DNA of 64,000 bases from a virus (Duplodnaviria > Heunggongvirae > Uroviricota > Caudoviricetes), in the IMG/VR virus record IMGVR_UViG_3300029305_003072; one strand, 5' to 3'. Of the stretch, positions 1-49,082 are shown one piece after another. The notes under the pieces are model-generated. The model made no database searches. It was not told where the DNA came from and saw nothing but the letters and a program-made list of their open reading frames with translations. The first letter of the stretch is position 1. Each line of letters starts with the position of its first letter. Both the position numbers and the translations under genes were made by a program.

Positions 1-771
1 AATCGCAGATTCAGTCTTATTGACGTGCTGACCGCCTTTTCCGCTTGAACGGAAAGTATCAACTCTAACATCTTTCATATCGAGTTCCACAGAGTTATCT
101 GCCTCGATTTCAGGCATTACTTCGACTGCTGCGAATGAAGTATGGCGTCTATTTTGAGAATCAAAGGGAGAAACGCGAACCAAACGATGGACGCCATTCT
201 CAGCGTTCAGCAAGCCGTATACATTCTCTCCTCTGATTTCTACCGAAACACTTTTCACGACTGAGCTATCTTCACCATCTTGCCAATCCAAAATATTGAA
301 TTGAAAATCATGATTACTAGCCCAGGCCGCATACATCTGAAGTAACATTCTGGTCCAGTCTTGTGCTTCTTTACCACCGGCACCAGAATGAATATTTAAA
401 ATGGCGTTGCAGGAATCGTACTTACCTGTGAACATTAACTCTAACTTGAGCTTTTGGATTTCCTCGACGAGGTAATTATAATCCATCTCAAATTCATGCA
501 AATAGTTGACTTCGCCTTCCTCTATTGCATACTCAGTTAAAGTTTTAAGGTCATCATACATATTCCAGATACCGAAATATAAATCATATTTCTTTTTGAG
601 GCGAGAGTATTCCTTCAGCTCCTCTTCTGGAATTTCATTCCAGGTTGAGTGGTTGAACTTAGCTTCGAGATAAGCCATACGGTCTTTCATCTCTTGAGGT
701 TTCAGAAGTTCAGCTACCTGTCTGATTTCCTCGTGCAAGTCTCTCACTTTTAACATAAATTCGCTTAACAT
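1..771 (-). CDS. prfB: peptide chain release factor 2 (RF2), N-terminal ~257 aa; 3' end lies beyond window start
   Basis: Minus-strand translation from ATG (plus 771-769), preceded by GAGGAGG: MLSEFMLKVRDLHEEIRQVAELLKPQEMKDRMAYLEAKF...NAILNIHSGAGGKEAQDWTRMLLQMYAAWA...RVSPFDSQNRRHTSFAAVEV...SSGKGGQHVNKTESAI. The SPF tripeptide is RF2-specific and the GGQ motif is present. No in-frame UGA frameshift site occurs near codon 25. Confidence 0.88.
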   Translation of the reverse strand, partial: MLSEFMLKVRDLHEEIRQVAELLKPQEMKDRMAYLEAKFNHSTWNEIPEEELKEYSRLKKKYDLYFGIWNMYDDLKTLTEYAIEEGEVNYLHEFEMDYNYLVEEIQKLKLELMFTGKYDSCNAILNIHSGAGGKEAQDWTRMLLQMYAAWASNHDFQFNILDWQDGEDSSVVKSVSVEIRGENVYGLLNAENGVHRLVRVSPFDSQNRRHTSFAAVEVMPEIEADNSVELDMKDVRVDTFRSSGKGGQHVNKTESAI

Positions 772-788
772 AATACTCCTCCTCTCTC

Positions 789-818
789 AAAAAGAATGGG
801 GGCGGAAGTCCCGCCCCC
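789..818 (-). terminator. rho-independent terminator (GGGGGCGG..CCGCCCCC hairpin, T-run on minus strand)
   Basis: An 8-bp GC stem at ~798-818 preceded on plus by AAAAAG, which is a U-run on the minus strand, downstream of gene 844-1257. Confidence 0.6.
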
Positions 819-843: not shown

Positions 844-1257
844 TCAGGCTTCCACTGCGCGGAAAGCCTTTACCTTACGAGCCTTGGCGCCATCAACGCC
901 AGGAACAGTGACATCAGTCTTCTCTGCGTCACCAGCCTCAACCAGCTTAGTCAAGCGGTAAGTAACCTTAGACACAGTAGCGTCTGCGTTGACCTCAGCA
1001 ACAGCAGCGGCGATGTCAGCGATAGTCTGGAACTCGCCAGTCAAAGCGTCACGGACCTGGTCCATGAGAACATCGGCCTCAGCCTTCTTAGCAGCGGCAC
1101 GCTCCTTAGCCTTAGCAGCCTTGGAATCCAAGGAAGCAATCTCCTTGTCGCAGAATGCCATCACAGTGGCAGCATCGAACTTGCAAGAACCAGTCTCGAA
1201 AGTCTCCTTGATAGCCTCGAACATCTCTCTCTTAGTAATCTTTTCCATAATTTGCAC
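844..1257 (-). CDS. hypothetical protein (137 aa, Ala/Lys-rich)
   Basis: Uninterrupted minus ORF with a cassette promoter just upstream (1310-1346). Confidence 0.6.
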   Translation of the reverse strand: MQIMEKITKREMFEAIKETFETGSCKFDAATVMAFCDKEIASLDSKAAKAKERAAAKKAEADVLMDQVRDALTGEFQTIADIAAAVAEVNADATVSKVTYRLTKLVEAGDAEKTDVTVPGVDGAKARKVKAFRAVEA

Positions 1258-1309: not shown

Positions 1310-1346
1310 CATATATATTATATCATATTTTTTTGAAAAAATCAAT
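1310..1346 (-). promoter_or_regulatory. early promoter cassette copy A (TTGATT-17-TGaTATAAT)
   Basis: Minus-strand -35 TTGATT at plus 1340-1345 and -10 TATAAT at 1317-1322, with a 17-nt spacer. It is followed by the conserved GTAAG(G/A)TAAAGAAAG leader. The same ~60-bp cassette recurs 7 more times. Confidence 0.75.
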
Positions 1347-3057
1347 AGACGATTTTCCCGAGTAGGTCAATACGCTCTTCATCGCTCTTTGTGGCTTGCA
1401 TTTGCTTTAGCCACTCGATGGTGCGTCGACTCAAATTGCCGGCATTGAAGCCGTCCTCAGTAACATTGCGGATGTCAAATGCTTGGCGTCTATTACCCCA
1501 GCTATCTCTAACATCATACAACTGACCGAATAGAGGTTCATACTCTTCCGGATGGTTCAAACAATCTTCACAGATAGATACATAGAAGTTGTAATTAAAT
1601 CCATCACGAATTTCTTCGTTTTCAGTATCTGCAAACTGAAGATAAATGTGTGCAACGCAATCATTTCTATGATGGTCGCCGCAAACCTCACATTCACTCA
1701 GTTCATTGTGGTAACACCAGTCGCAGGCGATATAATCGTCGTCAACTGTATAGGACTCATCATATGAGCTGTGCCAGTCGCCGCAGAAATCGCAACGCCA
1801 GTGTCCGTCACACGCTCTGCACTGTACAACATGAGCATCGACCTCGTCAAGCTCAATAATATCGCCGCAGCCAGTGCAAACTGCAGGTCCAGAGAAGTTG
1901 CAAGAATAATGGTCATCATCTTCAATCTTCTGGTCTGCCACATATGCTAAACGATAATCATAGACATCATTGTACATATAATTACAGTAGAAGTTGAAAC
2001 GAATGTGTTTATCCTTGACAGTGTTCCAGCTGTCATTTTTCAGCTGAATAGTTTCTTCGGGATAAGGTCCATATCCCGGAATCTGAGTCATCAAATCTCG
2101 AATCCATCTAATCGCTACACCCTGCAAATCATCGCTGATGTAAGGATACTGACGATTTCCAAGAATGACTTCTCTTGTTACGATGTAAAGCTGACGCCAA
2201 CGCTTACTATTCCAGTTACCGCCGGGAGTCCACATAGGCTCCTTGGACTCAACATATGCCACGATGACACAAGGAGAGTTCATCATTTCGATGGTTCCCA
2301 GTCTGTAATCGCCAGGTTCGTCCATCCAGCTCATACAAGAGGTCCAGCCGCAGTTGTTATCACTCATAGTGATAAAATCAAGCGGGTGAATAGACAGGCA
2401 AAGATTACCTTTAATCTGCTTCTGGTTTAGAACTTGAGAATGTGCCTGTCGGAACAGCTCATATCCAGAAGACTTTTCTAACGGCCCGCAGCACTCTGTT
2501 TCGCCATCAGTGTAGTAGCAGCCACAACCGCTGCAGTACATGATGGGGAGTTCTACATTAAGAGCCGCCGCAATCTTACCAAGCATTTTAACAGCTTTGC
2601 AGTTAGCATTAACCACAAGAGGTCGTCCATCCTTAGTAAACTTGCCAGGGATTGTGAAACCAGGACCGGGATAAATATTGTCAACCAACATATCCCAATC
2701 TTCAACAAAGGACTTGAGGCGATAAGTCATATCAATATCGCCCATCTCGTTGCCGATATGTCGAGCAGCATCCTTATAGGCAGAAATAAAGTTACGAATC
2801 ATCTGGTGTCCGTTGTTTAAAGCGGAATACATATCATTGGACAGTTCATCTTTTGGCTTAACTAAACGAACTTCCTTTTTTACGATAAACTGCTCTCCGA
2901 ACGCCCGGAAGAACGGTTCTTTATTTTCGTCCCAAAAACGAAGGAAATATCCCATTTTGTCTAACGGAAGAGTTCCGTTACCTTCATCACCGTAGTGAGA
3001 AATATAAGACTTAAATTGTGACTTATCTTCGTCCGGGAGCCTTTCAAATATACTCAT
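1342..3057 (-). CDS. hypothetical protein, 571 aa, Cys/His-rich (zinc-binding) C-terminal region
   Basis: Long uninterrupted minus ORF with many CxxC/HxxC clusters in the last ~150 aa. Promoter cassette B lies upstream. Confidence 0.65.
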   Translation of the reverse strand: MSIFERLPDEDKSQFKSYISHYGDEGNGTLPLDKMGYFLRFWDENKEPFFRAFGEQFIVKKEVRLVKPKDELSNDMYSALNNGHQMIRNFISAYKDAARHIGNEMGDIDMTYRLKSFVEDWDMLVDNIYPGPGFTIPGKFTKDGRPLVVNANCKAVKMLGKIAAALNVELPIMYCSGCGCYYTDGETECCGPLEKSSGYELFRQAHSQVLNQKQIKGNLCLSIHPLDFITMSDNNCGWTSCMSWMDEPGDYRLGTIEMMNSPCVIVAYVESKEPMWTPGGNWNSKRWRQLYIVTREVILGNRQYPYISDDLQGVAIRWIRDLMTQIPGYGPYPEETIQLKNDSWNTVKDKHIRFNFYCNYMYNDVYDYRLAYVADQKIEDDDHYSCNFSGPAVCTGCGDIIELDEVDAHVVQCRACDGHWRCDFCGDWHSSYDESYTVDDDYIACDWCYHNELSECEVCGDHHRNDCVAHIYLQFADTENEEIRDGFNYNFYVSICEDCLNHPEEYEPLFGQLYDVRDSWGNRRQAFDIRNVTEDGFNAGNLSRRTIEWLKQMQATKSDEERIDLLGKIVY

Positions 3058-34167: not shown

Positions 34168-35220
34168 ATGACCAAATTAAATTATACTTTAGAATCTCCA
34201 GAAGAAAGAAAATAGTTAGTCGAAAAAATTTTAGAAGAGTGTCCCAATCCTACTCCCTAGTACCTTGAGACACTTGCGGACTACCTAGTTCTTTGCATGG
34301 AGAAACAAGAGAAAAAGGAGCGTAAGCTATTAACTGAGAACCGAATGGCCACAGTCAATAAACGTGAAACTTCTTTCGAAGGTCTTGTTTCCCAACTCGA
34401 AAATGGCGAAGATGGCATTTATGGAATGATTAGTAATGATAAGAATTAGATTTTTCAACCAAAAGTAATGATAACAAAGAAAGATGTAGAAGAGATACCT
34501 GGGTTAGCACAATTAAGAGAAGCCATTAAGATGTGGGAACAGAAGTTAAAGACTACTTCCGGGCGTGATGCTTTTATCATCAAGACTGCGATTATCGAAT
34601 TACGAAAGGACCAATATATTCTTAAAGATGCCTATCGTAAACCAATAATCCCCAAAAATATCACCCGCTCGAAACACTTTATACCTTTAGAAAGCGACTT
34701 TGATTTTGACGATGAAGGTTATGTGATTCCAGAGGGTGTTTCTTTATGTGACCCGAAAGTCGTTTCAGCAATCTTATGTAACTACTCCTTAATGAAGCAA
34801 GAAAGTTGGGGAGAGTTTGAAAAGGATTTGTGGTATCTTATGTAGGAATTTGATGAAGTTGCGGATGCAGCTTTAAAAGATTATCCTTTATATGACCGCA
34901 TTTGTGAATACAAAGTTGATGGGTTGCAAAATATTGACATTCAAGAAAAACTTCAAATGGAATTTGGGATTAAACATAGTGTTGAATATATTTCAAGTTT
35001 ATGGAGAAATAAAATTCCAAAATTAATAGCTTCCGAGGCGGAAGATAGATTACTTAACTGGTATTTTTTAAATGAAATGAAAGGTAAGTATAAGAAGTGC
35101 AGCCGCTGTGGAGAAATTAAATTAGCACATAATAAATATTTTAGTAAGAATAAGACTTCAAAAGATGGCTTTTACAGTATTTGTAAAAAGTGCAGAAACT
35201 CTAAGGCCAAAAAGTCATAA
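34168..35220 (+). CDS. hypothetical protein (~350 aa) with C-terminal zinc ribbon (CSRCGE...CKKCRN); 4 in-frame TAG
   Basis: ATG 34168 after GGAGG; the pieces 34168.., 34468.. and 34924..35220 are all in one frame and are separated only by TAG. Confidence 0.6.
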
Positions 35221-35262
35221 TTCCGGCCTTGAATTTTCATTATAAGTAAAGGAGGAATTTTT

Positions 35263-36480
35263 ATGGCTGAAAGCTTTTATTGTGAAAAATGTAATCGAAC
35301 AATGAACGCTGATTAGTTCTATGGGTCTAATAATACAAGTAAGTATCCAGAAGGTAAGTTGCATAAATGTAAGAAGTGTGCGACGATGCATGTAGATAAT
35401 TTTAATCCAGATACTTATTTATGGATTTTACAAGAATGTGATGTTCCATATGTTCCAGAAGAATGGAACAAGTTACTGGCATCATATGGTAAAGACCGTT
35501 CTAAATTAACTGGTACGACTATTGTAGGTCGTTATCTTTCAAAGATGAAACTAAAGCAGTTTAGAGATTATCGTTGGAAAGATACTGAGTTCTTACAAGA
35601 AGTCGCAAATAAGAAAATTGAAGAAACTATGAAGCGTTAGGGATATGAAGCTGCGGAAATCGCTCAAGCGCTCGCCACGGCTAGTGTTCCGATTCCCCAA
35701 GGGGAAATTGAAATTCCTGTTTACCAGGAAACTAATGATAATCCATTCCTGTCGTCTGGAGACGACTACTTTGCGGAGCAAAGTGGAGGCCAAGACGATT
35801 TTGTGGATGATTTAACTGAAGAAGATAGAACATATCTTCGATTGAAATGGGGTAAAACCTATAAGCCAGAAGAGTGGATTAGACTTGAATAGTTATATGA
35901 AGAAATGATGCAATCATATGATATTCAAGGCGCCGGACACATTGATACTTTGAAATTAGTATGTAAGACATCTCTCAAGGCGAATCAATTAATCGACATT
36001 GGCGATATTGAGGGCTTCCAGAAGATGAGTAAAGTTTATGACAGTTTAATGAAGTCTGGTAAGTTTACTGCGGCTCAGAATAAAGCTGAGTCTGGCGAAT
36101 TTATTGATAGTATTGGTGAATTGGTTGCTCTCTGTGAGAGAGAGGGATTTATTCCTAGATATTATATTGATGAACCAAATGATAAAGTTGATAGAACATT
36201 ACAAGATTTACAGAGTTATACACGCGATTTAATTAATGAAGAGACTAACTTGAGTTCTATGATTGAACACGCTCTTCGTGAAATTGAAAAAGATAAGGAA
36301 AATGAAGCTAAACTTGAGTCCGATGATGGTTCTGAGGACGAAGATGCATTTGAAGCTTCTCTATTCGAAGATAATGCTGAGAAAGTTTTACATGATGAGG
36401 ACTTTACTGCTTTTAATGATTTCGAAGATGAGCTTGCGGATGATGATGAAGCTTTCTTAAAATCAATTTTAGGTGGATAA
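35263..36480 (+). CDS. hypothetical protein (~405 aa): N-terminal zinc finger (CEKCN..CKKC), acidic C-terminus, 3 in-frame TAG; small-terminase candidate
   Basis: ATG 35263 after AAGGAGG; the frame is continuous through TAGs at 35638 and 35890; it lies immediately upstream of terL. Confidence 0.55.
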
Positions 36481-36482
36481 TT

Positions 36483-38219
36483 ATGGCACTGCAGGATTTA
36501 TTGAATTTATCACAATCTCGTAAAAAGGTTGGTCTTTCTGAAGAAAGAGTGCGTGCCATAATTCCTGTAGCCAGAGACTATGTAGCTTACTGGCGAGAAT
36601 ACCCAGATATGTTTATTGACTTCTTACAAGATGGTGGTAATCCAGAAGTTAAGAAGGAATTAAAATTTTATTTCTATCAACGAGTTTTCTTACGTGCGGC
36701 AATGCGATATAAATATGTTTACATGGTATTCCCCCGTGCGTATTCTAAATCTTTCCTTTCTATTATGGTTTTGATGTGCCGTTGTGTTTTATATCCAGGG
36801 GCAAAGTTATTTGTTACATCTGGTGGTAAAGAGTAGGCAGCTGGCATCGTAAAAGAAAAGGTTCAAGAAATTTGTACTCTAGTACCTGCGTTCCGTCGAG
36901 AAATTGACTGGGGTCGAGGTAAAACACTAGAGGGTAAAGACTATTGTAAATATGTCTTTAAAAATGGTTCTTATTTCGATAATATTGCGGCTCGTGAGAG
37001 TTCGCGTGGTAAGCGTCGTCATGGAGGACTAATTGAGGAATGTGTTGGCGTTGATGGTACCATCCTTTCTGAAGTTATTATTCCTACCACTAACGTTTCT
37101 CGTAGATGTTTAGATGGAACTGTTCATCCAGAAGAGACGCTGAATAAGAGTCAGATTTATGTCACAACCGCAGGATGGAAAAATACTTTCCCATATGATA
37201 AATTAATTACCTTACTTGTTCGTATGGTAACCGAGCCTGAAAAAGCAATTATCATGGGTGGTACTTGGCGAATTCCTGTTTTGGTCAAATTGCTTGATGC
37301 GAATTTTATTAAAGATTTAAAGAATGACGGAACTTTCAATGAAGCTTCTTTTGCTCGTGAATATGAGAGTCGTTGGTCTGGTACTGTTGAAGATGCATTC
37401 TTTAATGGTGAGTTCTTTGATAGAAATCGTAAGTTACAGAAACCTGAATATGAGCATTCCGGCAGGAGTGCGGCGAACGCCTACTATATCCTATCAGTTG
37501 ACGTAGGTCGTAAGGGATGTGACTCTGTTGTTTGTGTATTTAAGGTAACCCCTCAAGCACAAGGTCCCGCAATTAAGTCTTTGGTTAATATTTATACTTT
37601 TGCGGATGAACATTTTGAGGACCAGGCAATTAGAATTAAGAAATTATATTATAAGTATAAAGCCCGCACAATCGTAATCGACGGTAATGGTCTTGGTATT
37701 GGATTAGTTGACTATATGATTAAATCTCAAGAAGATGAAAATGGTGACTTCTTCCCAGACTTTGGTGTTGAGAATGATGAAGATGGTTATTATAAAAAAT
37801 ATCGAACTGCAAATACTGAGTTTGATGCTATGTATATTCTAAAAGCAAATGCTCCTATTAATACTGAGTGTCACGCAAATGCGCAGACTCAGCTACAAGC
37901 CGGTAAGGTAAAATTCCTTATTGACGAGCGTGGAGCTAAGGAAAAATTATTGGCAACTAAAATGGGACAAAATATGAAGCCTGAGGAAAGGGCAGAATAT
38001 TTAAAACCATTTACCTTAACTTCCATATTAAAGGAAGAGATGATGAATTTGCGTGAAGAAAATGAAGGCGTAAATATCATCTTAAAACAAGCTAATCGTG
38101 GAATTAGGAAAGATAAATTTTCCGCTTTTGAATATGGTCTTTATTATATTAAGCAAGAAGAAGATAAAAAGAAAAAGAAAAAGAAGTTTAATGCCGCTGA
38201 TTGGGCATTCTTCAATTAA
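36483..38219 (+). CDS. terL: terminase large subunit (~578 aa), one in-frame TAG at 36835-36837
   Basis: The ATPase region (FPRAYSKSFLS, GLIEECVGVDG, IYVTTAGW) and nuclease region (VIDGNGLGIGLVDYM, ILKQANRGIRKDKFSAFEYG) are both present. The start and stop of the two track pieces are in the same frame. Confidence 0.8.
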
Positions 38220-38230
38220 GGAGGTTGACT

Positions 38231-38587
38231 ATGAGAGCTTCGAGAGGAGAAATTAAGATTGAAGAAATCTTAAAGGAAGCTGAACTCCCCTTTAAAATGG
38301 AGTATATCTTCCCCGACTTAAAGAGCCCAAATGGTCGCCCTTTAAGATTTGATTTTGTCGTTTTTGATGATGATGGAAAAATTGATTTTATTATTGAGTA
38401 TCAAGGTAAGCAACATTATGAGCCTAGTGCGAAATTCGGTGGTAAAAAAGGTTTCTTCCAACAATAGTATAATGATAATCAAAAACGACGCTTTTGTGCT
38501 TTACATGATTTTAAGTTGATTGAAATTCCATATACTGACGAAAATTTAATCTCCTATGACTATATTATGAATTTAGCAGGATATTAA
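38231..38587 (+). CDS. DUF559-like endonuclease-domain small protein (~118 aa), one in-frame TAG
   Basis: RFDFVVFDDDGKIDFIIEYQGKQHYEP..FGG...NQKRRFCALHDFKLIEIPY parallels the C-terminus of 30636-31451. Confidence 0.45.
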
Positions 38588-38601
38588 AAGGAGGTGGAGT
38601 T

Positions 38602-40257
38602 TTGGAGTTGAGTAGACAAGAAGAAATCCGTTCAAAAGGTTTTAATATGATGGATAATCGAATTACCGAATATGGTAAGATTAAAATCAATACTAAAACT
38701 TTGGATGATGCTGTTTTAAATCTTGGCGCGATTCAAGGTGTTACCCGTGGCGTTATTAATAAGGCTATTATTTATCGTGCTTTGATGGATAACGATGTTG
38801 TCCGTTTGCGTGAGATTTCTAATTATTTCTATAAGGCTAGCGGTATTTATCAACGTGTTTGTAATTATGCGGCAACCATGTATAGATATGACTGGTATGT
38901 TGTACCTGAAGTATTTGACGAGGCTGCTAAGACAAATGAGAAGATTTTAACTGATTTGAATAAAGTCCTCCATTATCTTGATAATTCTTACATCGCTAAA
39001 GTTTGCGGTGATATTGCTCTTGGAGTTGTGAAGAATGGCGCTTATTATGGCTATATTGTTCATAGTCCAAAAGGAGTAATCATTCAAGAACTTCCCATTA
39101 ATTACTGTCGTAGTCGTTTCAACCAAGGTAATTTACCTGTTGTTGAATTTAATATGAAATTCTTTGATTAGGCTTTTCCAGACACCACTTACCGTATGCA
39201 AGTATTGAATATGTTCCCTGACGAGTTTAAGAAAGGCTATGTCGCTTACAAGAGTGGAAAGTTGAGTAGACAGAAGTCTCTTGGTCAAGACCCAACCGTT
39301 GGTGGTTACTTGGGTAGCCGTTGGGTGGACGATTCTGGTTGGTGGATGCTGGAACCTCAGAACACTGTGAAATTCAGTTTCGCTAATGGTGGCAATGGTG
39401 CCGCCGACATCCCTTTATTTATCAACGCTATTCCTGCAATTCTGGATTTGGATGCGGCTCAAGATTTGGACCGTAGAAAGCAAATGCAGAAATTGTTGAA
39501 AATTGTAGTCCAGAAGTTACCAATGGATAAAAATGGAGATTTGATTTTCGACGTTGATGAAGCAAGAGATATTCATAATAATGCTGTGCAAATGTTAAAG
39601 CGTGCGGTCGGCGTCGATGTGTTGACCACATTTGCAGACATTGATAGTATTGATATGTCAGATAAAAATACCACTACTTCACAAGATGATTTAGCTAAAG
39701 TGGAGCGTAGTGTGTTTAATGCTCTTGGTATTTCTCAGAATATGTTTAATACCGATGGTAATTTGGCATTAACTCAATCTATTTTAAATGATGAAGCTGC
39801 TTTACGCACATTATTATTACAATTTGAGATTTTCTTTGATAGAATCACTCAATCATTGAGTGGGGCAAAGAAGAAATATAACTTCAGATTATATATGCTG
39901 GAAACCACACAATATAATTATAAAGAGTTAGCTAAGATGTATAAAGAACAAGTCCAAATGGGATATTCAAAAATGTTACCCCAAATTGCGTTGGGTCACT
40001 CCCAGAGCTTTATCTTAAATACTGCTTACTTTGAGAATGAAGTTATGAAGTTGAGTGAGATTATGATTCCTCCTCTAATGTCTTCTACTATGAAAATGGA
40101 AGATTTAAAAGGTGGGGGCAATTCTAATTAGACTCAAACAAATAAAACTCAAACTAATACAGGAGGATAGACTTCTGAGAAATCTGCGGGCCGTCCGGAA
40201 AAACCAGACTCCGAGAAATCTGAAAAGACTATCCAAAATAAAGAATCTATGAGCTAA
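38602..40257 (+). CDS. portal protein (~551 aa), 3 in-frame TAG
   Basis: TTG start after AAAGGAGG. It has the size and position expected after terL, and its frame is continuous through TAGs at 39169, 40129 and 40168 before ending at TAA 40255-40257. Confidence 0.6.
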
Positions 40258-40270
40258 GGAGGAGATTAAA

Positions 40271-41809
40271 ATGCCAATGCATACAAGTATTAAATTGGAC
40301 ACACCTGTTGAATTTATCAATATCACTCCTCTTAATCCTTTGATTTCTAAATGTCAAATTAAAGTGTGTTATGTTGGTGATGAACCAAATCGTAATAGAA
40401 GTATTATTACCAAGGAGACTGCTAAACAAATGGCAAACTCCCTCCCCGGCTGCCCTATTGTCGGATTTTATAATGAAGAAAAGGGCGACTTTGAGGAGCA
40501 TAACCGCATTATTGATATTTCAAATGGTAAGTTTGAAATTAAGGATACAACTAGACCCTATGGATTTGTTGATTTAAATGCTAAGGTTTGGTTTCAAAAG
40601 TTTTTAGATGATGGAATGAATGAGCGTGAATATATGATGACTGAAGGCTGGCTATGGACTGGTCAGTATCCCGAGTGTCGTAGAATTTTATCCCAGGGTA
40701 ATAATCATTCTATGGAACTCGATGAAGACACAATTGATGCACATTGGTCAAAAGATGGTAATGGAGAACCTAAATTTTTCATTATCAATGAAGCAATTAT
40801 CTCAAAACTTTGTACATTGGGTGTGAATAATGAACCTTGCTTCGAAGGTTCTACTATTGGTGCCCCTGTAATTCAATTCGCTTTTGCTGATGGTTTTAAA
40901 GAGCAAGTATTCTCTATGATGAACGAATTGAAAGAATTACTAAATAAAGGAGGAGAAAAAGTGTTTACTAGATACGCTGTTGAAATCGGTGACGCTTTGT
41001 GGACCGCTCTTTATAGCCATGTAGAAGGTACTTACGGCATTGAGAGTGTCTGTGAAGACGAGGGACAGAAGCTATTTGCTGTTCTAACTGCCGATGAAAA
41101 GTACTATCGTCTTGATTTCTCCGTTGCCGAAGATGGCTCTGTTGTGTTTGCGGCCGAGGCTCAGTTATTGGAGGATTATACTCCAGCTGAAGAGCCACAG
41201 TTCGACGCAGCCGCAGTTGCTGAATATGCTAAGTCAAAGAAGGACGAGGGTAAGAAGCCCGAGGACGACGATGATGAGGGCGGCGAAGAGGAAAAATGCC
41301 CTAAGTGTGGAAAGAAGAAGTCCGAGTGTGAGTGCGAGGATGACGACGATTCCGATGATGAGGACGAGAAAAAGAAAAAGCAGGGCAAAAAGGAAAAATA
41401 CAATCTTGAGGAAATTCAAGAATATGTAGAGCTAAGCAATAAATATTCTGCTTTAGAGACTGATTATGCTAATGCACAGTCCACTATCACTACTCTACAG
41501 AGCCAGCTAAATGAGTTGACTACTTTCAAGAAGGGTATTGAGAAGGCAGAAAAAGAGAAGATGATTGCAAGTTTCTATATGCTTTCTGATGAAGATAAGA
41601 AAGATGTCGTAGAAAATATTGACAAATATTCTCCAAAAGAAATTGAAGCAGAGCTTTCTATTTTATGTGTTCGCAACAAGGTCAGTTTCAACCTTGATGA
41701 TGATAAGAACGATGGCAAAGACCCAATGACCTTTAGTTTAAATGGTGGCATGAATGATGATGCTCCAGCTTGGATTAAAGCTATTCGTTCTGTTGCGAGT
41801 GAAATGTAA
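40271..41809 (+). CDS. head morphogenesis protein, scaffold-like (512 aa; acidic coiled-coil C-terminus with a CPKCGKKKSECEC motif); no TAG
   Basis: Position between portal and capsid genes; the C-terminus is a long Glu/Asp/Lys-rich coiled coil. Confidence 0.45.
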   Translation: MPMHTSIKLDTPVEFINITPLNPLISKCQIKVCYVGDEPNRNRSIITKETAKQMANSLPGCPIVGFYNEEKGDFEEHNRIIDISNGKFEIKDTTRPYGFVDLNAKVWFQKFLDDGMNEREYMMTEGWLWTGQYPECRRILSQGNNHSMELDEDTIDAHWSKDGNGEPKFFIINEAIISKLCTLGVNNEPCFEGSTIGAPVIQFAFADGFKEQVFSMMNELKELLNKGGEKVFTRYAVEIGDALWTALYSHVEGTYGIESVCEDEGQKLFAVLTADEKYYRLDFSVAEDGSVVFAAEAQLLEDYTPAEEPQFDAAAVAEYAKSKKDEGKKPEDDDDEGGEEEKCPKCGKKKSECECEDDDDSDDEDEKKKKQGKKEKYNLEEIQEYVELSNKYSALETDYANAQSTITTLQSQLNELTTFKKGIEKAEKEKMIASFYMLSDEDKKDVVENIDKYSPKEIEAELSILCVRNKVSFNLDDDKNDGKDPMTFSLNGGMNDDAPAWIKAIRSVASEM

Positions 41810-41836
41810 TAAAAACTAAAAGGAGGAAATATAGAA

Positions 41837-42721
41837 ATGCTTAAAGAGTTTTTAAGTAAGCATATTACTAGTCAGGCTTCTGTGAAGAATGGCGGATATG
41901 TTGAACTGGGCTACGGCCAGGTTGAGCCTAACCACTTGTCTGCACAGCGCACTGCTCAGATTTATGCTCAGTTACCTGCAGACCCCTCTATTGAGGTTCT
42001 GGAGCAGGGACAGTTTGTTAAGTATGACTATGCAGCTGGCCTTGTAAACTTTGGTTCTGATGACCATGATACTGGTGAATGGATGCTGGTTTACAACGAA
42101 ACTAAGTTGTATCGTGAGCATCAGTTGGATTGCGAATTCGCAATGATTAAGGGCAACTATCAGGCCCGTGTTTATAGTCCATTGGATGGCGATAACAGCA
42201 AGATGGCTGAGGAGCTATATGGACCTACTCGTTTGCTACAGGGTGTTAGCGAAGTGTATAAGAATGGCTCTTTTGAAGCAAGACCTGTTTTTGACGCTAA
42301 TGGTAATGTTGTTGCGCCAGTTGTTGATGAAGAGACTGGTAAAGTAAGTTATCCTGGCGTTGACGATTTTGGTGTCGCTTCTACTGTTTATGACCCATAT
42401 GAGATGAACGATATTAACAATCCTGAAATTAAGGAAGATTATCGTCGTCGTTTGTTTATGAAGCTGCGTGCTGTTAAGCATCCTGAGAAGATGATGCCTA
42501 CTGGCACTACTATGGTACCTCGTGTATTCAAGACTAATGTTGGTGACCATTATACTACTAACATGATTCTTGAGTCTGAATTGGCTGTTGGTGATATTTT
42601 GGCACCTAATGCTAAGGGTATCTTGGCTAAGGATAACAGCCAGGCTATGAAATGGCAGGTTGTTAAGGTTTATACTATGCCCGACCATCAAAAGGGCGTT
42701 AAGATTCTACGTATTGCGTAA
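41837..42721 (+). CDS. virion structural protein, capsid-associated (294 aa); no TAG
   Basis: Strong SD; it lies between the scaffold-like and putative capsid genes. Confidence 0.4.
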   Translation: MLKEFLSKHITSQASVKNGGYVELGYGQVEPNHLSAQRTAQIYAQLPADPSIEVLEQGQFVKYDYAAGLVNFGSDDHDTGEWMLVYNETKLYREHQLDCEFAMIKGNYQARVYSPLDGDNSKMAEELYGPTRLLQGVSEVYKNGSFEARPVFDANGNVVAPVVDEETGKVSYPGVDDFGVASTVYDPYEMNDINNPEIKEDYRRRLFMKLRAVKHPEKMMPTGTTMVPRVFKTNVGDHYTTNMILESELAVGDILAPNAKGILAKDNSQAMKWQVVKVYTMPDHQKGVKILRIA

Positions 42722-42738
42722 GAAAGGAGAGAAGAGTA

Positions 42739-43851
42739 ATGGCTTTAGATAGAAATAATTTAGTACAGTTGGCTAAGACTGTTGCAAAGGCTGACCCTTC
42801 TGCTTCTGTGTCTTATAGCTTTAACGGTGAAAACTTTAGTTATGCCGCTTTGAACGAGACTCTACGTCGTGAGTTCAATGAGTTGGCTGGTACTTATTCT
42901 TTATATCGTGATAACAAGAATTTGATTTTCTCTGTTATCGAAGAGACTTTGGACGAGGTTCTGCCTAAGAAGGTTGAAATGGCTTATATGCAGTTCGCCG
43001 AGACTAAGCAGTTCGCTCAGGGCGACAAGCCTATTTTCCGTCGTAAGAGAGACGTTCGTTCTCGTGCTAAGCAGTTCATCACTCGTGTTGGATTGGCTGG
43101 TATTTACGAAGTATTTAAGCTAGGTCCTGCAGAAGAAGAGAGCTTCGAAGTTCGTACTTCTGCTATCGGTGGAGCTGCTCAGATTGGATTCGAGGAGTTC
43201 CTAGACGGTCGTGTGGACTTCGCTGAAGTAACTAATATTGTTATGGAAGGTATGGATGAGTTAATTATGAAGGAAGTTGGACATGCTCTAGCTGCTTCTG
43301 TTAACCAGTTACCTCCTGCAAATATTGTTGTTGCTACTGGCTTCGATGAAAAGGCTTTCGACAACTTGTTGGTTATCGCTTCCGCTTATGGTGAGCCTTC
43401 TATTTACTGCACTTATGAGTTCGCAGTTAAGATGGTTCCTGAGCAGGGTTGGCGTTGGACTGAGAATATGAAGCAAGAGTTGTGGGATACTGGTCACTTG
43501 GCTATGTACAAGGGACGTAAGGTTATCATCCTACCTCAGGGCTTGGAAGACGAGACCAATACTCGTAAGGTAATCAATCCTGGTTATTGCTATATCATCC
43601 CAAGTGGTGCTGATAGCAAGCCTGTTAAGATTGCTTTCGAGGGTGGTACAATCGTTGACGAGTATGTAAATGCTGACCGTTCTCGTGAGATTCAGGTTTA
43701 CAAGAAGGTTGGCGTAACTGCTATGTTAGCTAATAACATCTGCGCTTATGCTGATACTGAGTTGCTAGGTCAGTATGATTTGGCTGACTCTATTTGGGAC
43801 AGCTCTAACTATGTTGATATGTCCTATAACGTTAAGGACGTTAATGCCTAA
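42739..43851 (+). CDS. putative major capsid protein (370 aa); no TAG
   Basis: Size and position are typical for the capsid gene, a very strong terminator follows immediately, and there is no TAG. Confidence 0.5.
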   Translation: MALDRNNLVQLAKTVAKADPSASVSYSFNGENFSYAALNETLRREFNELAGTYSLYRDNKNLIFSVIEETLDEVLPKKVEMAYMQFAETKQFAQGDKPIFRRKRDVRSRAKQFITRVGLAGIYEVFKLGPAEEESFEVRTSAIGGAAQIGFEEFLDGRVDFAEVTNIVMEGMDELIMKEVGHALAASVNQLPPANIVVATGFDEKAFDNLLVIASAYGEPSIYCTYEFAVKMVPEQGWRWTENMKQELWDTGHLAMYKGRKVIILPQGLEDETNTRKVINPGYCYIIPSGADSKPVKIAFEGGTIVDEYVNADRSREIQVYKKVGVTAMLANNICAYADTELLGQYDLADSIWDSSNYVDMSYNVKDVNA

Positions 43852-43882
43852 TTAAATATTAATATATAACTAAGAGGGGGAA

Positions 43883-43923
43883 GTGGGGATATCCCCTCTT
43901 CCCCCTTTTTTTCATTTTAAAAA
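43883..43923 (+). terminator. strong rho-independent terminator (AGAGGGGGAAGTGGGGATATCCCCTCTTCCCCCT + T7)
   Basis: Long GC hairpin followed by a T-run. Confidence 0.85.
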
Positions 43924-43945
43924 CAGAGAAAAAGGAGATATAAAA

Positions 43946-44566
43946 ATGAGTACAATGTATAGAGTAAAAAACCGTGGTGCAAGCACCGTTGTTTATAAGA
44001 TTCCAGACAAGGGAATTCGTAGAGAATTCAAGCCTGGTCAGATTATTCCAATTAGTTCTGAAGAGTTAGAAGAATTAACTTTCCAGCCTGGTGGAGTTAC
44101 TATGTTAAGTCAATTCTTGCAGATTTTGGACCTTGAAGGAATTCAAGCTGCTCGTATTAAGACTGAACCTGAATATCATATGAGTGAAGCTGATGTTGCC
44201 AAGTTGATTACTAGTGGTTCCTTGGATGCTTTCTTGGATGCACTTGACTTTGCTCCCATTGGAGTTATTGATTTAATTAAGAAGTTGAGTATTTCTATTC
44301 CTATGGTTGATATCCCAAAGCGTAAGGCTTTGAAGGAAAAGACTGGTTTTGATGTGGAAGCCGCATTGAAGCACAATGAGGAAGATAAAGAAGATGACCA
44401 GAAGACAATCTTGAAAACTAATAATGGTGGCGAGCGTAGAGTACAGCCTGCTGCAGCTCCTGCCGGACGTCGTACAGCACCTACTGTAACTGCTCCTGCG
44501 GCCGCACCTAAATATAATATTGTTACTAAACCTGCAGTTGAGGCTCCTGCTGAATCTGCTGAATAA
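43946..44566 (+). CDS. virion protein (206 aa) with Pro/Ala-rich C-terminus; no TAG
   Basis: ATG after AAAGGAG. Confidence 0.5.
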   Translation: MSTMYRVKNRGASTVVYKIPDKGIRREFKPGQIIPISSEELEELTFQPGGVTMLSQFLQILDLEGIQAARIKTEPEYHMSEADVAKLITSGSLDAFLDALDFAPIGVIDLIKKLSISIPMVDIPKRKALKEKTGFDVEAALKHNEEDKEDDQKTILKTNNGGERRVQPAAAPAGRRTAPTVTAPAAAPKYNIVTKPAVEAPAESAE

Positions 44567-44585
44567 TAAATAAGGAGGCAATTAT

Positions 44586-45164
44586 ATGGCTGAGACACAA
44601 TTTTCGGCTGTTTATAATCGCTTTCTTGGACAAGTTACCGATGATTTATACTTGGAATTAACTCCCGAAGATACTTTAAAAGATTTGCAAAATCTTTTAA
44701 TTAATGCAATTCCTGGTTTTGAATTTCCTCGTCAAGATTTATACAATTATACGATTGAAGTTAGAACTATGGGAGCGGATGAATTAACTCCCGATGATTT
44801 TGTATTGGGAACTGTTTGGGGAGAGTTACCAAGTGACACATTGTAGACTCCAAATGTTTTAGTTGATAAGTCTCGATTTAATGTTGAGCTTACTCAAGAA
44901 GAAATCAACATCCTGGCGCTTTTAATGAAGCAAGGTTGGGTTCAGCGCCAGGTTGCTTCTATCGAAAATACTCGAATGAAATATAGTGGCTCTGATTTTA
45001 AAATGACTTCTCAAGCGAACCACTTATCTAAGCTATTGTCTTTATTGACTGAGGCTCGCAGAGATTCGTTCCATATGCAACGCTTATATAAACGCAGAAA
45101 ACCTGCGGAAGGCGGTTATAAGAGCAACTGGTCTAGCTTAATGGAGGTTAGTGCTCTTGACTAA
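44586..45164 (+). CDS. head-tail connector/adaptor candidate (~192 aa), one in-frame TAG
   Basis: Track pieces 44586-44846 and 44925-45164 are in the same frame and joined by TAG. Confidence 0.45.
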
Positions 45165-45459
45165 ATATGGATTTGATTTTGATGATAGAAGCATTGATGT
45201 AAATGTTCGTCGTTTAACCAACCAACTTTGGAAATTAATTCCAATGCGCGAGCATGAAGAAGATTGGCCTAAACAATTAGATACAGTTATTTTAGAAATT
45301 GCGGGCATGAATGAAGTATTCATGAACCCGCAATTTTTACAGCTGCTATGTAAATTAGAGGGACTGAAAGCTCAAGAGACGAATTTTGAACTATACCGCA
45401 AGACTGTGTTTGAAAGCATTAGTCTTTTGTAGGAGTTAAGCCATGGCATCAGGTTATGA
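45151..45459 (+). CDS. hypothetical protein (~102 aa if TAG 45430 is read through to TGA 45457-45459; 93 aa otherwise)
   Basis: The frame continues 9 codons past the TAG to a TGA; where this gene ends depends on how TAG is decoded. Confidence 0.4.
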
Positions 45460-46660
45460 TTTAAGTAGCCGTGTCCCTTTTAGATTAATGAAAGGTCGAT
45501 TAGGAGTTTACGATAAAAGACCGTTTGACCCAGCTGGTTCTACTGCCGAACAACTTGAATAGCAAAATCGTGTAGAAGAATTGATGAAAGTAATTAAAAA
45601 TATGAACATTGATTTAGATACTGTAACAATCCAAAAGATTGAGAATTTGTTGTCACAAGATAAAATTGATGAGGCTGGTATCGTATTGACGCAACTAGAC
45701 CCCAAAATTACTGGTATTTGGGAACAAGCTACTCGTTTTCGTCAGGCGGGCGGTAACAGACAGCAAGAACGTATGATTAAAGACAAGCGTCGTTCTTTAG
45801 ACCATGCAGTTTGGAATTCTTATCAGGCTGCTGAGGTCGTGCGAGTGGATGCGGAGAACCGCAAGCCAGTTCGCGCACTTATTAATCCAAATAAACTAAA
45901 ACAAGACTATGATGATAAAATCATTTCTGTGGGTTTTGAATATAATTTCAAATGCGGCGATGTGTTTGAGTGGTTAGGTACAAAAACTCACTGGTTAGTT
46001 TATTTACAAGATTTAACTGAATTAGCTTATTTCCGTGGTGATATTCGCAAGTGCTCTTATTAGATTGCTTGGGAGGATGAAGATGGTATTCATACCACAT
46101 ATGCGGCCGTGCGCGGTCCAGTGGAAACTAAAATTAACTTCATTCAAAAACATGGAATTAGTGTTGACACTCCTAATCACTCATTGAGTATTTTAATGCC
46201 AAAAAATGAATACACAATGAATTATTTTAAACGATATAGTAAGTTTTATCTTCAAGGCGATGATACTTGTTGGCGTGTTGAAGCTTCTGATTGGATTTCG
46301 ACTCCTGGAATCTTGGAAGTTATCGCAGTAGAGTATTATGCTAATGAAACTGAGGATGATGTAGATGCTGGTATCGTTGGTGGTTTAATTGAACCAATTA
46401 AAGACCCAAATGAAGGAACTGTTGATGAAATGGATATTATTGGAGAAACATTTATTAAGGTTAAGAAATTGTATGATTATGAATTTAATGGTACAAAAGC
46501 TGATGAATGGTATGTCGACAAGAAATATCCTGTTGAATTAATTCCTGACCCAACTGACCCAAGACGAGTATCTGTTCGATGGGTTAGTTCTTATAGTGGA
46601 CAATTTGAATTACTATATGGAGATTATAGTAAAACAATTGTTGTTGAGTCTTTATTTTAA
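45443..46660 (+). CDS. head-tail joining / neck protein candidate (~405 aa), 2 in-frame TAG
   Basis: ATG after AGGAG; three track pieces are in one frame and joined by TAGs at 45560 and 46061. Confidence 0.45.
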
Positions 46661-46687
46661 TAATTAAGTGATAAAGGAGATATAGAT

Positions 46688-47272
46688 ATGAAAAGAGAAG
46701 TTTATTCTTATCCTAAATCAAGTTTTTTGTCTACTGAAAAAGATATGAATTTGATTGTTCAGATGATTATGAAAAATGAGCGTCTGAAAAAAATGTTATA
46801 CTACACAACTCGTGATTGTATGAATAAGCCTAATTTAACCGAGGATGAAACTCTTGGTTTATTTGGTGAATAGATTAAGATTGTACCTAAGCTAACTGTT
46901 GATGGTTCAGTATTGAATTATATTATTGTTAGTTTTGATAATTTTACTGGTAATCGTAAGAATCCCGAGTTTAGAGATAATATTATTGAGTTTGACATTA
47001 TTTGTCATTTTGACCAATGGAAAATGAAAGACTTTGAGTTGCGTCCTTATAAGATTGCGGCAGAGATTGATTCTATGTTCAATGGAAAACATTTAACTGG
47101 AATTGGTGAGTTGGAATTTTTAGGCGCAAATCAAATGATTCTTACGGATGAATTTGGTGGATTGTGTTTAATGTATCAAGCTATCCATGGAGAAGAGGAT
47201 AAAAAGAAAATGCCTAATCCTAATGATGAAGAAGACTTCATCAAAAACTTTGATGCAATGTTTAATAATTGA
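46688..47272 (+). CDS. tail completion/neck protein candidate (~194 aa), one in-frame TAG
   Basis: Pieces 46688-46873 and 46913-47272 are in the same frame. Confidence 0.45.
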
Positions 47273-47994
47273 TGGATACTCGATTATCTTTAATGTGCGG
47301 AACGGATTATCCCGTTCCTGAATGTTAGTTAGTTATTCATCAACCTCGCATCAAAGAGATTGCATTTATAGGGGAAGCAGATTTTTTTACAGGTATTTAG
47401 TGTTTGTGCTTAAATAAATCCATGTTTATCAAGGACGAATCTCTTTTAAGAGATACAAATAATTTTCAAATATTTATGACGATAATGTCAGAAAAAGAAG
47501 CGGCAGATAAAAAGTTTGCGGTGCAGCAAGTCTTTACTTTAATATTTCCAAAATATAAAGTAATGATGACTCCACGCTCTGTGCTACTTAGTGGAGATGG
47601 AATGACAATTCAAATTGATGAAAAGAATTTTGAGTCATTACAAGCAGCGTTGACAAATATCTGTTGTCTGAAAACTGGCCCTATGGATTAGTAGAGTTTT
47701 AATCCAGCAAATGCTAAAGCTCGAGAGATAGCAGAAAAACTTATGCGAGGACGAGCTAAGGTTGCTGCTGAAAAGGGTCAAAGTAATATCAGTATATTTA
47801 GCCAGTATCTTTCAATACTTACAGTGGGATTACATATTCCTATGTAGGAGCTAATGGATTTAACCATGTTCCAATTATATGACTTAGTTGAAAGATATAT
47901 GCTATATATTAATTGGGATATGGACGTCCGTTGTCGTTTGGCTGGAGGCAAACCCGACAATCAACCTGACAATTGGATGAAAAATATTCACTAA
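47272..47994 (+). CDS. hypothetical virion protein (~240 aa), 5 in-frame TAG including a TAG-TAG doublet
   Basis: ATG overlaps the previous TGA (TGATG). The frame is open to TAA 47992-47994, with TAGs at 47326, 47398, 47689, 47692 and 47845. Confidence 0.4.
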
Positions 47995-48020
47995 CTAAAA
48001 TTTTAAGGAGGATACAAACC

Positions 48021-49025: not shown

Positions 49026-49046
49026 TTGACAATTAAATAAATTTAA

Positions 49047-49082
49047 GGGGAGAGATTAAGAAATTAATCTCTCCCCTTTTTG
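49047..49082 (+). terminator. rho-independent terminator (GGGGAGAGATTAAGAAATTAATCTCTCCCC + T-run)
   Basis: A 12-bp stem followed by a T-run. Confidence 0.8.

What the first reader, a model, noticed from the sequence alone, without database searches (positions are those of the whole stretch)
1..771. Phage-encoded release factor 2 next to an amber-recoded operon, apparently without the prfB frameshift site
The first gene is an unmistakable RF2 (SPF and GGQ motifs). RF2 terminates at UAA/UGA but not UAG, so a phage copy fits a strategy of keeping non-amber termination efficient while UAG is reassigned. The N-terminal region shows no in-frame UGA like the CUU-UGA autoregulatory frameshift common in bacterial prfB.
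Basis: partly seen in the sequence, partly recalled or inferred. Interest (0 to 1): 0.8.

Follow-up and report, generated by a model that had tools for sequence, protein, structure and literature searches.

The report
Phage release factor 2 gene
A large gut or rumen phage that reads the TAG stop codon as glutamine in its late genes carries its own intact copy of release factor 2; this is a real but already described accessory of such phages, and the missing frameshift site was inherited from the bacterial donor lineage rather than evolved in the phage.

Summary
Window 1-771 (minus strand, ATG at 771) encodes the first 257 of 360 codons of a true RF2. It has SPF and GGQ, and the full-length protein scores 445 bits against the prfB model (cut-off 370). 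An identical IMG/VR contig supplies the intact C-terminus and a TAA stop.

The element is a phage: it has a portal protein, a terminase-like protein and a sigma factor. Its late genes (34.2-64 kb, plus strand) carry 87 in-frame TAGs that align with CAA/CAG in relatives, so TAG is read as Gln.

RF2 is not next to the recoded genes. About 33 kb of TAG-free early genes lie between them.

There is no frameshift site, but all 80 nearest bacterial prfB genes (Oscillospiraceae and related Clostridia) also lack one, so the absence is inherited.

RF2 is an optional cassette sitting between two terminators. A TAG-recoded relative with 91% capsid identity lacks it at exactly this site, as do other relatives.

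RF2 in TAG-recoded phages is already published for Lak, Agate and jumbo phages. This is a new member of a known kind, of modest interest. It most likely supplements UAA/UGA termination during the switch of genetic code.

The parts
1..771 (-). RF2 (prfB-like) coding sequence, codons 1-257 of 360. The C-terminal 103 codons lie beyond window position 1.
   Evidence: Translation; NCBIfam and Pfam matches; full length recovered from the identical contig L001 2487-3569.
163..171 (-). SPF tripeptide codons (aa 201-203), the RF2-type stop-codon recognition motif.
   Evidence: aligns with E. coli S205-P206-F207.
28..36 (-). GGQ codons (aa 246-248), the peptidyl-tRNA hydrolysis motif.
697..711 (-). Codons 21-25 (ELLKP; GAA CTT CTG AAA CCT). 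This is the position homologous to the E. coli CUU-UGA frameshift site. It is open in frame 0, with no UGA.
355..378 (-). GGKEAQDW, a signature of the phage RF2 clade (Lys where 79 of 80 bacterial relatives have Thr).
776..782 (-). Shine-Dalgarno sequence GGAGGAG, 4 nt upstream of the ATG.
789..818 (-). Intrinsic-terminator-like hairpin GGGGGCGGGACTTCCGCCCCC plus a T tract. It lies downstream of the 137-aa gene and 17 nt upstream of the RF2 ribosome-binding site. No promoter lies between it and RF2.
   Evidence: equivalent hairpins in relatives L004, L005 and L112.
844..1257 (-). Upstream 137-aa gene of unknown function (GC 0.52, TGA stop), conserved in relatives with and without RF2.
1317..1345 (-). 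Sigma-70-type promoter TTGATT-N17-(TG)ATATAAT that would drive the 137-aa gene and, by read-through, RF2.
1342..3057 (-). 571-aa Cys-rich protein (phrog_18912, function unknown). It is a paralogue of a 468-aa protein downstream of RF2 and served as the synteny anchor.
34168..35220 (+). Phage sigma-factor gene with 4 in-frame TAGs. It is the first recoded gene and the nearest one to RF2.
34168..64000 (+). Late structural module using TAG as Gln: 17 ORFs with 87 in-frame TAGs; the 16 ORFs that end inside the window stop at TAA (15) or TGA (1). It includes a terminase-like gene (36483-38219), a portal gene (38647-40257), a capsid-like gene (42739-43851) and a 3092-codon ORF (51018-60293).

Best explanation
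The gene encodes a functional, phage-adapted class-I release factor 2. An ancestor of this phage clade acquired it long ago from a Clostridia (Oscillospiraceae-like) host, and it is now carried as an optional cassette in some members.

Proposed mechanism:
1. RF2 is transcribed early or in the middle of infection by host RNA polymerase. Transcription would start at a sigma-70-type promoter in front of the upstream 137-aa gene and read through that gene's terminator.
2. The tRNA array that begins 4.6 kb downstream is expressed in the same period.
3. The extra RF2 raises the cell's capacity to terminate at UAA and UGA. Apart from 2 of the 54 early ORFs, whose TAG may be a sense codon rather than a stop, these are the only stop codons the phage uses. 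UAG is meanwhile decoded as Gln by a suppressor tRNA.
4. Phage termination therefore does not depend on host RF1, the only factor that competes with the suppressor at UAG. Termination would stay efficient if RF1 is titrated, outcompeted or inactivated late in infection.

Shown here: the identity and integrity of RF2, purifying selection on it, TAG read as Gln, the stop-codon usage, the cassette structure and the fact that RF2 is dispensable.

Inferred: the timing of expression, the benefit to termination, and any link to RF1.
For: - RF2 identity and motifs.
- Intact 360-codon gene ending in TAA.
- Purifying selection: dN/dS is 0.075 against the 84%-identical homologue. All motif residues are invariant across 29 protein clusters.
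- GC content of 0.41 matches the phage average of 0.40, so the acquisition is old.
- The phage RF2s form a single clade apart from the 80 nearest bacterial RF2s.
- TAG is Gln: in-frame TAGs align mainly with CAA/CAG in 16 related loci.
- Stop codons: late ORFs TAA 15, TGA 1; early ORFs TAA 37, TGA 15, TAG 2.
- RF2 and its neighbours contain no TAG, so they can be translated before the code switch.
- Promoter and terminator layout.
- A tRNA array lies downstream (13 tRNAs in L001). A tRNA with anticodon CUA sits in the arrays of relatives L004 and L155.
- Two contigs from another phage family that carry RF2 (L025, L026) also look TAG-recoded.
- Published parallels exist in Lak, Agate and jumbo phages.
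Against: - RF2 is dispensable for recoding. L112/L006 is one 176.6-kb contig, TAG-recoded, with 91% capsid identity. It has the 138-aa gene, a terminator, a promoter and the 273-aa homologue, with no RF2 between them. The pattern scan found no RF2 of this clade anywhere in that contig.
- L029 has an HNH endonuclease gene and a small gene at the site instead.
- None of 36 viral loci and none of 51 metagenome loci from the wider phage group carry RF2 near the syntenic anchors.
- No tRNA-CUA was found in the window or in the 10-kb extension.
- RF2 has no promoter of its own and sits behind a strong terminator, so it may be expressed only weakly.
- There is no evidence that host RF1 is inhibited.
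- A relative that carries RF2 (L023) also carries two tRNAs with the opal anticodon UCA. This does not fit a simple 'protect UGA termination' picture.
Confidence: 0.55

Rival explanations
1. RF2 is a generic booster of translation capacity, unrelated to recoding. Like the large tRNA array beside it, it would sustain termination when host factors decay after host shut-off, or match the TAA-rich stop usage of an AT-rich phage.
For: RF2 sits with 13 to more than 25 tRNA genes in a translation-related region. It is optional even among recoded relatives. PHROGs already holds a phage family of RF-like proteins, phrog_19918. Late genes end almost only in TAA, which RF1 could also serve.
Against: Wherever the genetic code of an RF2-carrying phage could be judged here, it is TAG-recoded: the window, and L025/L026. 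The published cases pair RF2 with TAG recoding and RF1 with TGA recoding. A generic booster would not be expected to match the recoded codon in this way.
Confidence: 0.28
2. RF2 is a weapon or a necessity in a host that itself reads TGA as sense and lacks RF2 (the phage-host antagonism model attributed in the Borges et al. preprint, to an earlier single-genome study). The phage RF2 would truncate host proteins at UGA and allow the phage's own TGA stops to work.
For: The phage does use TGA stops, which need RF2: 15 of 54 early ORFs and 1 of 16 late ORFs. The model is summarised.
Against: Genes upstream of RF2 and in the promoter-rich 16-34 kb block, which includes the region next to the divergent early/late promoters, already end in TGA. 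They would have to terminate before any phage RF2 exists. The nearest RF2 relatives and the structural-gene relatives point to standard-code Bacillota or Clostridia hosts. Borges et al. found that recoded phages infect standard-code hosts.
Confidence: 0.04
3. RF2 is a decaying or neutral passenger picked up by horizontal transfer, with no role in infection.
For: Presence varies among close relatives. There is no dedicated promoter, and the gene lies between two terminators like an inserted cassette.
Against: dN/dS is 0.075. The reading frame is intact in at least 29 protein clusters spanning 49-100% identity (55-90% over the full-length alignment), with SPF/SPY, GGQ and about 100 other columns invariant. 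The composition matches that of the phage, and the gene has a strong ribosome-binding site.
Confidence: 0.05

Closest known systems
RF2 genes of TAG-recoded Lak megaphages (Devoto et al. 2019, PMC6784885) and of TAG-recoded Agate and jumbo phages (Borges et al. preprint 10.1101/2021.08.26.457843; PMC13037316)
   Same: A phage-encoded RF2 occurs in a genome whose late genes contain in-frame TAG read as Gln. The RF gene itself is written in the standard code. The proposed role is to keep TAA/TGA termination working while TAG is suppressed.
   Different: The phage lineage differs. Here the hosts are probably Clostridia, relatives have contigs of about 175-200 kb, and the structural genes are nearest the phAss-1 and Enterococcus EF1 group. 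Lak RF2 matches only residues 101-257 of the query, at 48% identity. This work also shows that the gene is an optional cassette, absent from a close recoded relative.
Bacterial prfB (RF2; TIGR00020), closest in Oscillospiraceae (Oscillibacter, Dysosmobacter, Ca. Fimenecus, Ca. Limivicinus)
   Same: Same domain architecture, SPF and GGQ motifs, and length. As in these bacteria, the ORF is continuous with no +1 frameshift.
   Different: Identity is only 47-57%. The phage genes form a separate single clade. Signature changes are GGTE to GGKE, SPFD-(SSG/AAG/ANA) to SPFD-SQN, and AGGQ to KGGQ. The gene lies in a phage genome and has phage-like GC content.
E. coli prfB with the autoregulatory CUU-UGA-C +1 frameshift
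   Same: An orthologous protein; E. coli RF2 gives 268 bits over residues 9-358.
   Different: There is no in-frame UGA, no frameshift cassette and no Shine-Dalgarno-like stimulator at the homologous codons 21-25. Autoregulation by RF2 level is therefore absent, as it is in the donor lineage.
The 'code change module' of TGA-recoded Jade phages (suppressor tRNA, TrpRS and RF1 upstream of the lysis cassette; Borges et al.)
   Same: A release factor matching the stop codons that are not recoded, written in the standard code and clustered with tRNA genes.
   Different: Here the factor is RF2 rather than RF1. No aminoacyl-tRNA synthetase was seen. The module is not next to lysis or late genes. The suppressor tRNA was not recovered for this genome.
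phAss-1 / proposed Phassvirus group (PMC10607447)
   Same: A TAG-to-Gln phage of presumed Clostridia hosts. Its capsid-like protein is 45% identical to that of the window phage, it has many tRNAs, and it has recoded and standard-code relatives.
   Different: The phAss-1 genome is smaller (136 kb), and the paper describing it never mentions a release factor.

Membership tests
Class-I peptide chain release factor RF2 (prfB, TIGR00020) | PCRF domain followed by an RF-1 (GGQ) domain | tested here: met
   Pfam PF03462 at 1.6e-46 and PF00472 at 8e-11 on the window fragment.
Class-I peptide chain release factor RF2 (prfB, TIGR00020) | Whole-protein score above the curated prfB cut-off and above the RF1 models | tested here: met
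   Full-length protein from L001: prfB 445.5 bits (cut-off 370). The RF1 models score 262 and 250 bits, below their cut-offs of 400 and 423.
Class-I peptide chain release factor RF2 (prfB, TIGR00020) | SPF tripeptide (RF2 type) rather than PxT (RF1 type) in the codon-recognition loop | tested here: met
   RVSPFDSQNRRHTSF at aa 199-213. It aligns with E. coli SPF 205-207.
Class-I peptide chain release factor RF2 (prfB, TIGR00020) | GGQ catalytic motif | tested here: met
   SGKGGQHVN, with GGQ at aa 246-248.
Class-I peptide chain release factor RF2 (prfB, TIGR00020) | Programmed +1 frameshift at CUU-UGA near codon 25 (common in bacteria, not universal) | tested here: not met
   The ORF is continuous and the homologous codons are CTT CTG AAA. 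This is not a defining feature: 80 of 80 nearest bacterial prfB genes also lack it.
Class-I peptide chain release factor RF2 (prfB, TIGR00020) | Peptide release at UAA and UGA but not at UAG | not testable with these tools
   Needs an in vitro termination assay.
Phage code-change machinery for TAG recoding (Lak, Agate and jumbo phage type) | In-frame TAG codons in late or structural genes, decoded as an amino acid | tested here: met
   87 in-frame TAGs in 17 late ORFs. They align mostly with CAA/CAG in relatives.
Phage code-change machinery for TAG recoding (Lak, Agate and jumbo phage type) | The release factor matches the stop codons that are not reassigned, and its gene is readable in the standard code | tested here: met
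   The factor is RF2, its gene has no in-frame TAG and it ends in TAA.
Phage code-change machinery for TAG recoding (Lak, Agate and jumbo phage type) | A suppressor tRNA with anticodon CUA in the same genome | tested here: inconclusive
   None was found in the 64-kb window or among the 13 tRNAs of the 10-kb extension. One is present in the arrays of relatives L004 and L155. The array of this phage continues beyond the available sequence.
Phage code-change machinery for TAG recoding (Lak, Agate and jumbo phage type) | Expression before the recoded late genes | not testable with these tools
   Only inferred, from the sigma-70-type promoter at 1345-1317 and the position within the TAG-free block.

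The most novel reading that the evidence does not exclude
The phage RF2 clade may not be a plain extra copy. It could be a functionally altered factor. Three substitutions are invariant in the 29 clade representatives aligned here: Lys in the GG-x-E tip of helix alpha5, next to the Glu that reads U1 (from my knowledge of RF2-ribosome structures); Gln-Asn right after SPFD; and Lys before GGQ. These could change its kinetics or partners. Possible outcomes include hyperactive UAA/UGA release that makes RF1 fully dispensable, stricter rejection of UAG, or resistance to a phage factor that disables host release factors. The conserved neighbouring M28-like peptidase or the Cys-rich paralogues might be such a factor. 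RF2 would then be one half of an 'RF1 knock-down plus RF2 replacement' system.
Probability: 0.1. Interest if true: 0.65.

Novelty: new member of a known kind. Interest (0 to 1): 0.3.

Why it matters
The finding adds a well-resolved example of a phage-encoded RF2 in a TAG-to-Gln phage. The example comes from a lineage with probable Clostridia hosts, where this had not been described.

Two points sharpen the published picture. First, the missing prfB frameshift is inherited from the donor bacteria and is not a phage adaptation. Second, RF2 is an optional cassette: a close relative that is equally recoded lacks it at exactly this site. RF2 is therefore a modulator of the code switch, not a requirement for it.

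These natural variants with and without RF2 would make a clean comparison for testing what a phage release factor actually contributes.

Tried and rejected
- Near-identity search of window 1-25000 against GenBank phages found no match. No named close relative exists.
- The short RF2 homologues P0040 (328 aa) and P0032 (325 aa) were suspected of hiding a frameshift or an in-frame TAG. Their DNA shows ordinary GTG starts further upstream in the same frame. Rejected.
- The sequence 'CTT CTG A' at the homologous site looked like a healed CUU-UGA site. The frames do not fit a simple one-base change, so it was treated as coincidence.
- The 97-nt tRNA-CUA of L004 has a long extra arm and lies next to a tRNA-Ser, which suggested TAG might mean Ser or Leu. 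The codon-substitution analysis shows Gln. Its acceptor stem (U1-A72, G2-C71, G3-C70) also looks Gln-like.
- I tried to recover the suppressor tRNA of this very phage. A pattern search in the held loci found only the L004 copy. An exact 51-mer from the end of L001 found nothing in metagenome contigs. Anchoring on the 104-aa gene gave 51 metagenome loci, none of them from this phage.
- I tried to test RF2 against genetic code across relatives. The RF2 alignment found only 6 IMG/VR contigs. The ±10-kb loci rarely include both RF2 and late genes, so the association remains anecdotal.
- Simple ORF coverage under alternative codes did not discriminate at first. Listing the long TAG-containing ORFs did.
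- The neighbouring proteins gave no informative family beyond an M28-like peptidase and HNH endonucleases.
- In the dN/dS script the L004 row is invalid because my start coordinate was off by one. It was ignored.

Full report
**What is at 1-771**

The gene lies on the minus strand. An ATG at 771-769 follows a GGAGGAG Shine-Dalgarno sequence at 776-782. The frame stays open to window position 1, giving 257 codons.

The product matches the NCBIfam prfB model at 276.5 bits, against 158 bits for prfA. It contains the Pfam PCRF and RF-1 domains. SPF lies at aa 201-203 and GGQ at aa 246-248.

The window removes the C-terminus, not the N-terminus. Contig IMGVR_UViG_3300024303_001623 (L001) is identical to window 1-3257 with no mismatch, and it extends 10 kb further left. 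On it the gene is intact: 360 codons, a TAA stop and its own terminator-like hairpin. The full-length protein scores 445.5 bits against prfB (cut-off 370) and fails both RF1 models. Against solved structures it gives 312 bits to the best-matching RF2 chain (9fy1_8) and 268 bits to E. coli RF2 over residues 9-358.

**The frameshift question**

In the alignment with E. coli RF2, the L25/D26 frameshift position falls on phage L23/K24. These codons read GAA CTT CTG AAA CCT, at 697-711. There is no in-frame UGA, and an in-frame stop lies just upstream of the ATG.

It is not a phage-specific feature, however. The 80 nearest bacterial genes are from Oscillibacter, Dysosmobacter, Ca. Fimenecus, Ca. 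Limivicinus and other Clostridia, at 47-57% identity. All 80 are continuous ORFs from an N-terminal MLEFEEYK-type start. Two shorter phage homologues that might have hidden a frameshift simply use upstream GTG starts. The frameshift-less state was therefore inherited from the donor lineage.

**Is this a phage, and is it amber-recoded?**

Yes to both. On the plus strand from 34.2 kb onward lie:
- a sigma factor (phrog_5767, 2e-51);
- a terminase-like protein;
- a portal protein (phrog_2739, 4e-81);
- capsid-region proteins and very large structural ORFs.

Read with TAG as sense, 17 consecutive ORFs appear with 87 in-frame TAGs in 9468 codons. One of them is a 3092-codon ORF with 51 TAGs and no TAA or TGA. 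Of the 16 ORFs that end inside the window, 15 end in TAA and 1 in TGA.

In 16 related IMG/VR loci, the window's TAG codons align chiefly with CAA and CAG. The relatives' TAGs likewise align with the window's CAA and CAG. CAA differs from TAG at two positions, so this is not an effect of mutational proximity. TAG is read as Gln.

The minus-strand genes from 844 to about 34 kb need no TAG read-through. Of the 54 ORFs of at least 90 aa, 37 end in TAA, 15 in TGA and 2 in TAG. RF2 is therefore about 33 kb from the first recoded gene, not next to a recoded operon.

**Genomic setting**

RF2 is the second gene of a small unit. The order is:
1. a promoter, TTGATT-N17-TGATATAAT, at 1345-1317;
2. a 137-aa gene;
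3. a strong terminator-like hairpin at 798-818;
4. the ribosome-binding site and RF2;
5. a second hairpin overlapping the stop codon.

Downstream come a 273-aa protein, an M28-like peptidase, a 468-aa Cys-rich protein that is a paralogue of the 571-aa protein upstream, an HNH endonuclease and a 104-aa protein. A tRNA array follows, with 13 tRNAs before the contig ends. The same gene order is seen in four metagenomic relatives that carry RF2.

The window holds 42 perfect TTGA-N18-20-TATAAT promoters, against 1.5 expected by chance. Nearly all lie in the 1-34 kb block. This fits early or middle transcription by the host polymerase.

**RF2 is an optional cassette**

L112 is the start of the same 176.6-kb contig as L006. 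That phage has 91% capsid identity to the window phage and is clearly TAG-recoded: ORF coverage rises from 0.53 to 0.92 when TAG is read as sense, and it shares in-frame TAG codons with the window. In it, the 138-aa gene and its terminator are followed directly by the conserved promoter and the 273-aa homologue. No RF2 lies between them. The pattern scan found no RF2 of this clade anywhere in that contig.

L029 has an HNH endonuclease gene and a 96-aa gene at the site instead. No RF2 lies within 10 kb of the 571-aa homologue in 36 viral loci. None lies within reach of the 104-aa homologue in 51 metagenome loci.

Where RF2 is present, it is under strong purifying selection. dN/dS is 0.075 against the 84%-identical copy, and the catalytic and recognition motifs are invariant in 29 protein clusters. 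Its GC content of 0.41 matches the phage average of 0.40. The phage RF2s form one clade apart from the bacterial ones, with signature changes GGKE, SPFD-SQN and KGGQ.

**Suppressor tRNA**

None is present in the window or in L001. A tRNA-CUA occurs in the arrays of two relatives. In L004, which has RF2, it is 97 nt long with an insertion in the variable region. In L155, which has no RF2 in the 9.4 kb available upstream, it is 75 nt long with a U1/C72 mismatch and G73. The array of this phage continues beyond the available sequence, so this component is unresolved.

**Most likely mechanism**

The phage ends virtually all of its genes with TAA or TGA, which are the codons RF2 recognises. The late genes, which include a sigma factor, cannot be translated until TAG is suppressed.

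An early-made phage RF2 would let all phage termination run without host RF1, the only factor that competes with the suppressor at UAG. It would also keep TAA/TGA termination efficient if RF1 is outcompeted or lost.

This is the interpretation already published for Lak megaphages, Agate phages and jumbo phages. The fact that RF2 is dispensable shows it is a modulator and not a requirement. I put this reading at about 0.55.

The rivals are:
- a generic booster of translation capacity, about 0.28;
- a weapon against a TGA-recoded host, about 0.04, which is disfavoured because genes upstream of RF2 and in the promoter-rich 16-34 kb block already use TGA stops;
- a neutral passenger, about 0.05, which is disfavoured by the purifying selection.

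**Comparison with known systems, and novelty**

The protein is a member of the RF2 family on every feature that could be tested. The system matches the described phage code-change machinery, except that the suppressor tRNA could not be recovered for this genome.

By structural genes, the nearest named phages are phAss-1 (45% identity to the capsid-like protein), Enterococcus EF1-like phages and some Bacillus phages. The phAss-1 paper reports TAG read as Gln and probable Clostridia hosts, and it does not mention a release factor.

The finding is a new member of a known kind. Its added value is the evidence that the frameshift-less state is inherited and that the cassette is optional.

Noticed in passing
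window 1317-34139 and 50282-60384, both strands: The pattern TTGA-N18-20-TATAAT gives 42 perfect sigma-70-type promoters, against 1.5 expected. They fall into two classes. One is 'TTGACAAA...TGnTATAAT', about 25 copies, mostly on the minus strand between 16 and 34 kb. The other is a near-identical 29-mer, 'TTGATTTTTATAAAAAAATATGATATAAT', found between 1.3 and 15.8 kb. Only three such promoters precede late plus-strand genes (34111, 50282, 60356).
   Followed up: partly
L001 8210-8281 (about 7.4 kb left of window position 1); homologues in L002, L004, L005, L023, L145-L150 and L162: The first tRNA of the array, just 5' of tRNA-Trp(CCA), is one conserved scaffold that carries a different anticodon in related phages. 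The anticodons are CCT (this phage), TCT, TCA (opal suppressor), GCT, GAT, GCA and TGA. CCT, TCT, TCA, GCT, GCA and TGA are linked by single-base changes; GAT is two changes away from the nearest of them. The amino-acid identity and function of this tRNA are unknown.
   Followed up: partly
L023 6584-6657 and 10543-10616; L145 8518-8591; L147 1277-1350: Predicted tRNAs with the opal anticodon UCA occur in relatives. One of these relatives (L023) also encodes RF2, and its early genes still use TGA as a stop. This is hard to reconcile with a simple role for RF2.
   Followed up: partly
L004 19818-19914; L155 18739-18813: Amber-suppressor tRNAs (anticodon CUA) are found in relatives' arrays. One is 97 nt long with a 28-nt stem-loop insertion in the variable region and a Gln-like acceptor stem. 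The other is 75 nt long with a U1/C72 mismatch and G73.
   Followed up: partly
window 34168-35220 (+): The first gene of the late plus-strand block is a sigma factor (phrog_5767) with 4 in-frame TAGs, preceded by a sigma-70-type promoter at 34111-34139. Late transcription may therefore be gated by TAG suppression.
   Followed up: partly
window 51018-60293 (+): A single 3092-codon ORF with 51 in-frame TAGs and a GC3 of only 0.20. It is probably a giant virion or tail protein and was not annotated further.
   Followed up: no
L009, L010, L011, L019 (capsid loci; L019's contig is 192 kb), also L015 and L020: Close relatives of the late module (87% capsid identity) have essentially no in-frame TAG. 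The window's TAGs are CAA or CAG there. The genetic code therefore differs between near relatives, as reported for Agate phages.
   Followed up: partly
window 1342-3057 (-) and L001 5537-6943 (+): Two paralogous Cys-rich proteins of 571 and 468 aa (phrog_18912, no Pfam domain) flank the RF2 region. They share an HPLDF...SC...WNSK(R/K)WR core and C-terminal CxxC repeats. Homologues are widespread in 130-200 kb viral contigs. Their function is unknown.
   Followed up: partly
window 844-1257 (-): The 137-aa gene just upstream of RF2 is much more GC-rich than its surroundings (0.52 against 0.40). It is Ala/Lys/Glu-rich and is highly conserved in relatives whether or not they have RF2. No protein family matched it.
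   Followed up: no
window 27929-28342 (-) and 31752-32069 (-): These are the only two early-strand ORFs of at least 90 aa that end in TAG. A TAA or TGA follows after 5 codons in the first and after 75 codons in the second. It is unclear whether TAG acts as a stop or as Gln in them.
   Followed up: no
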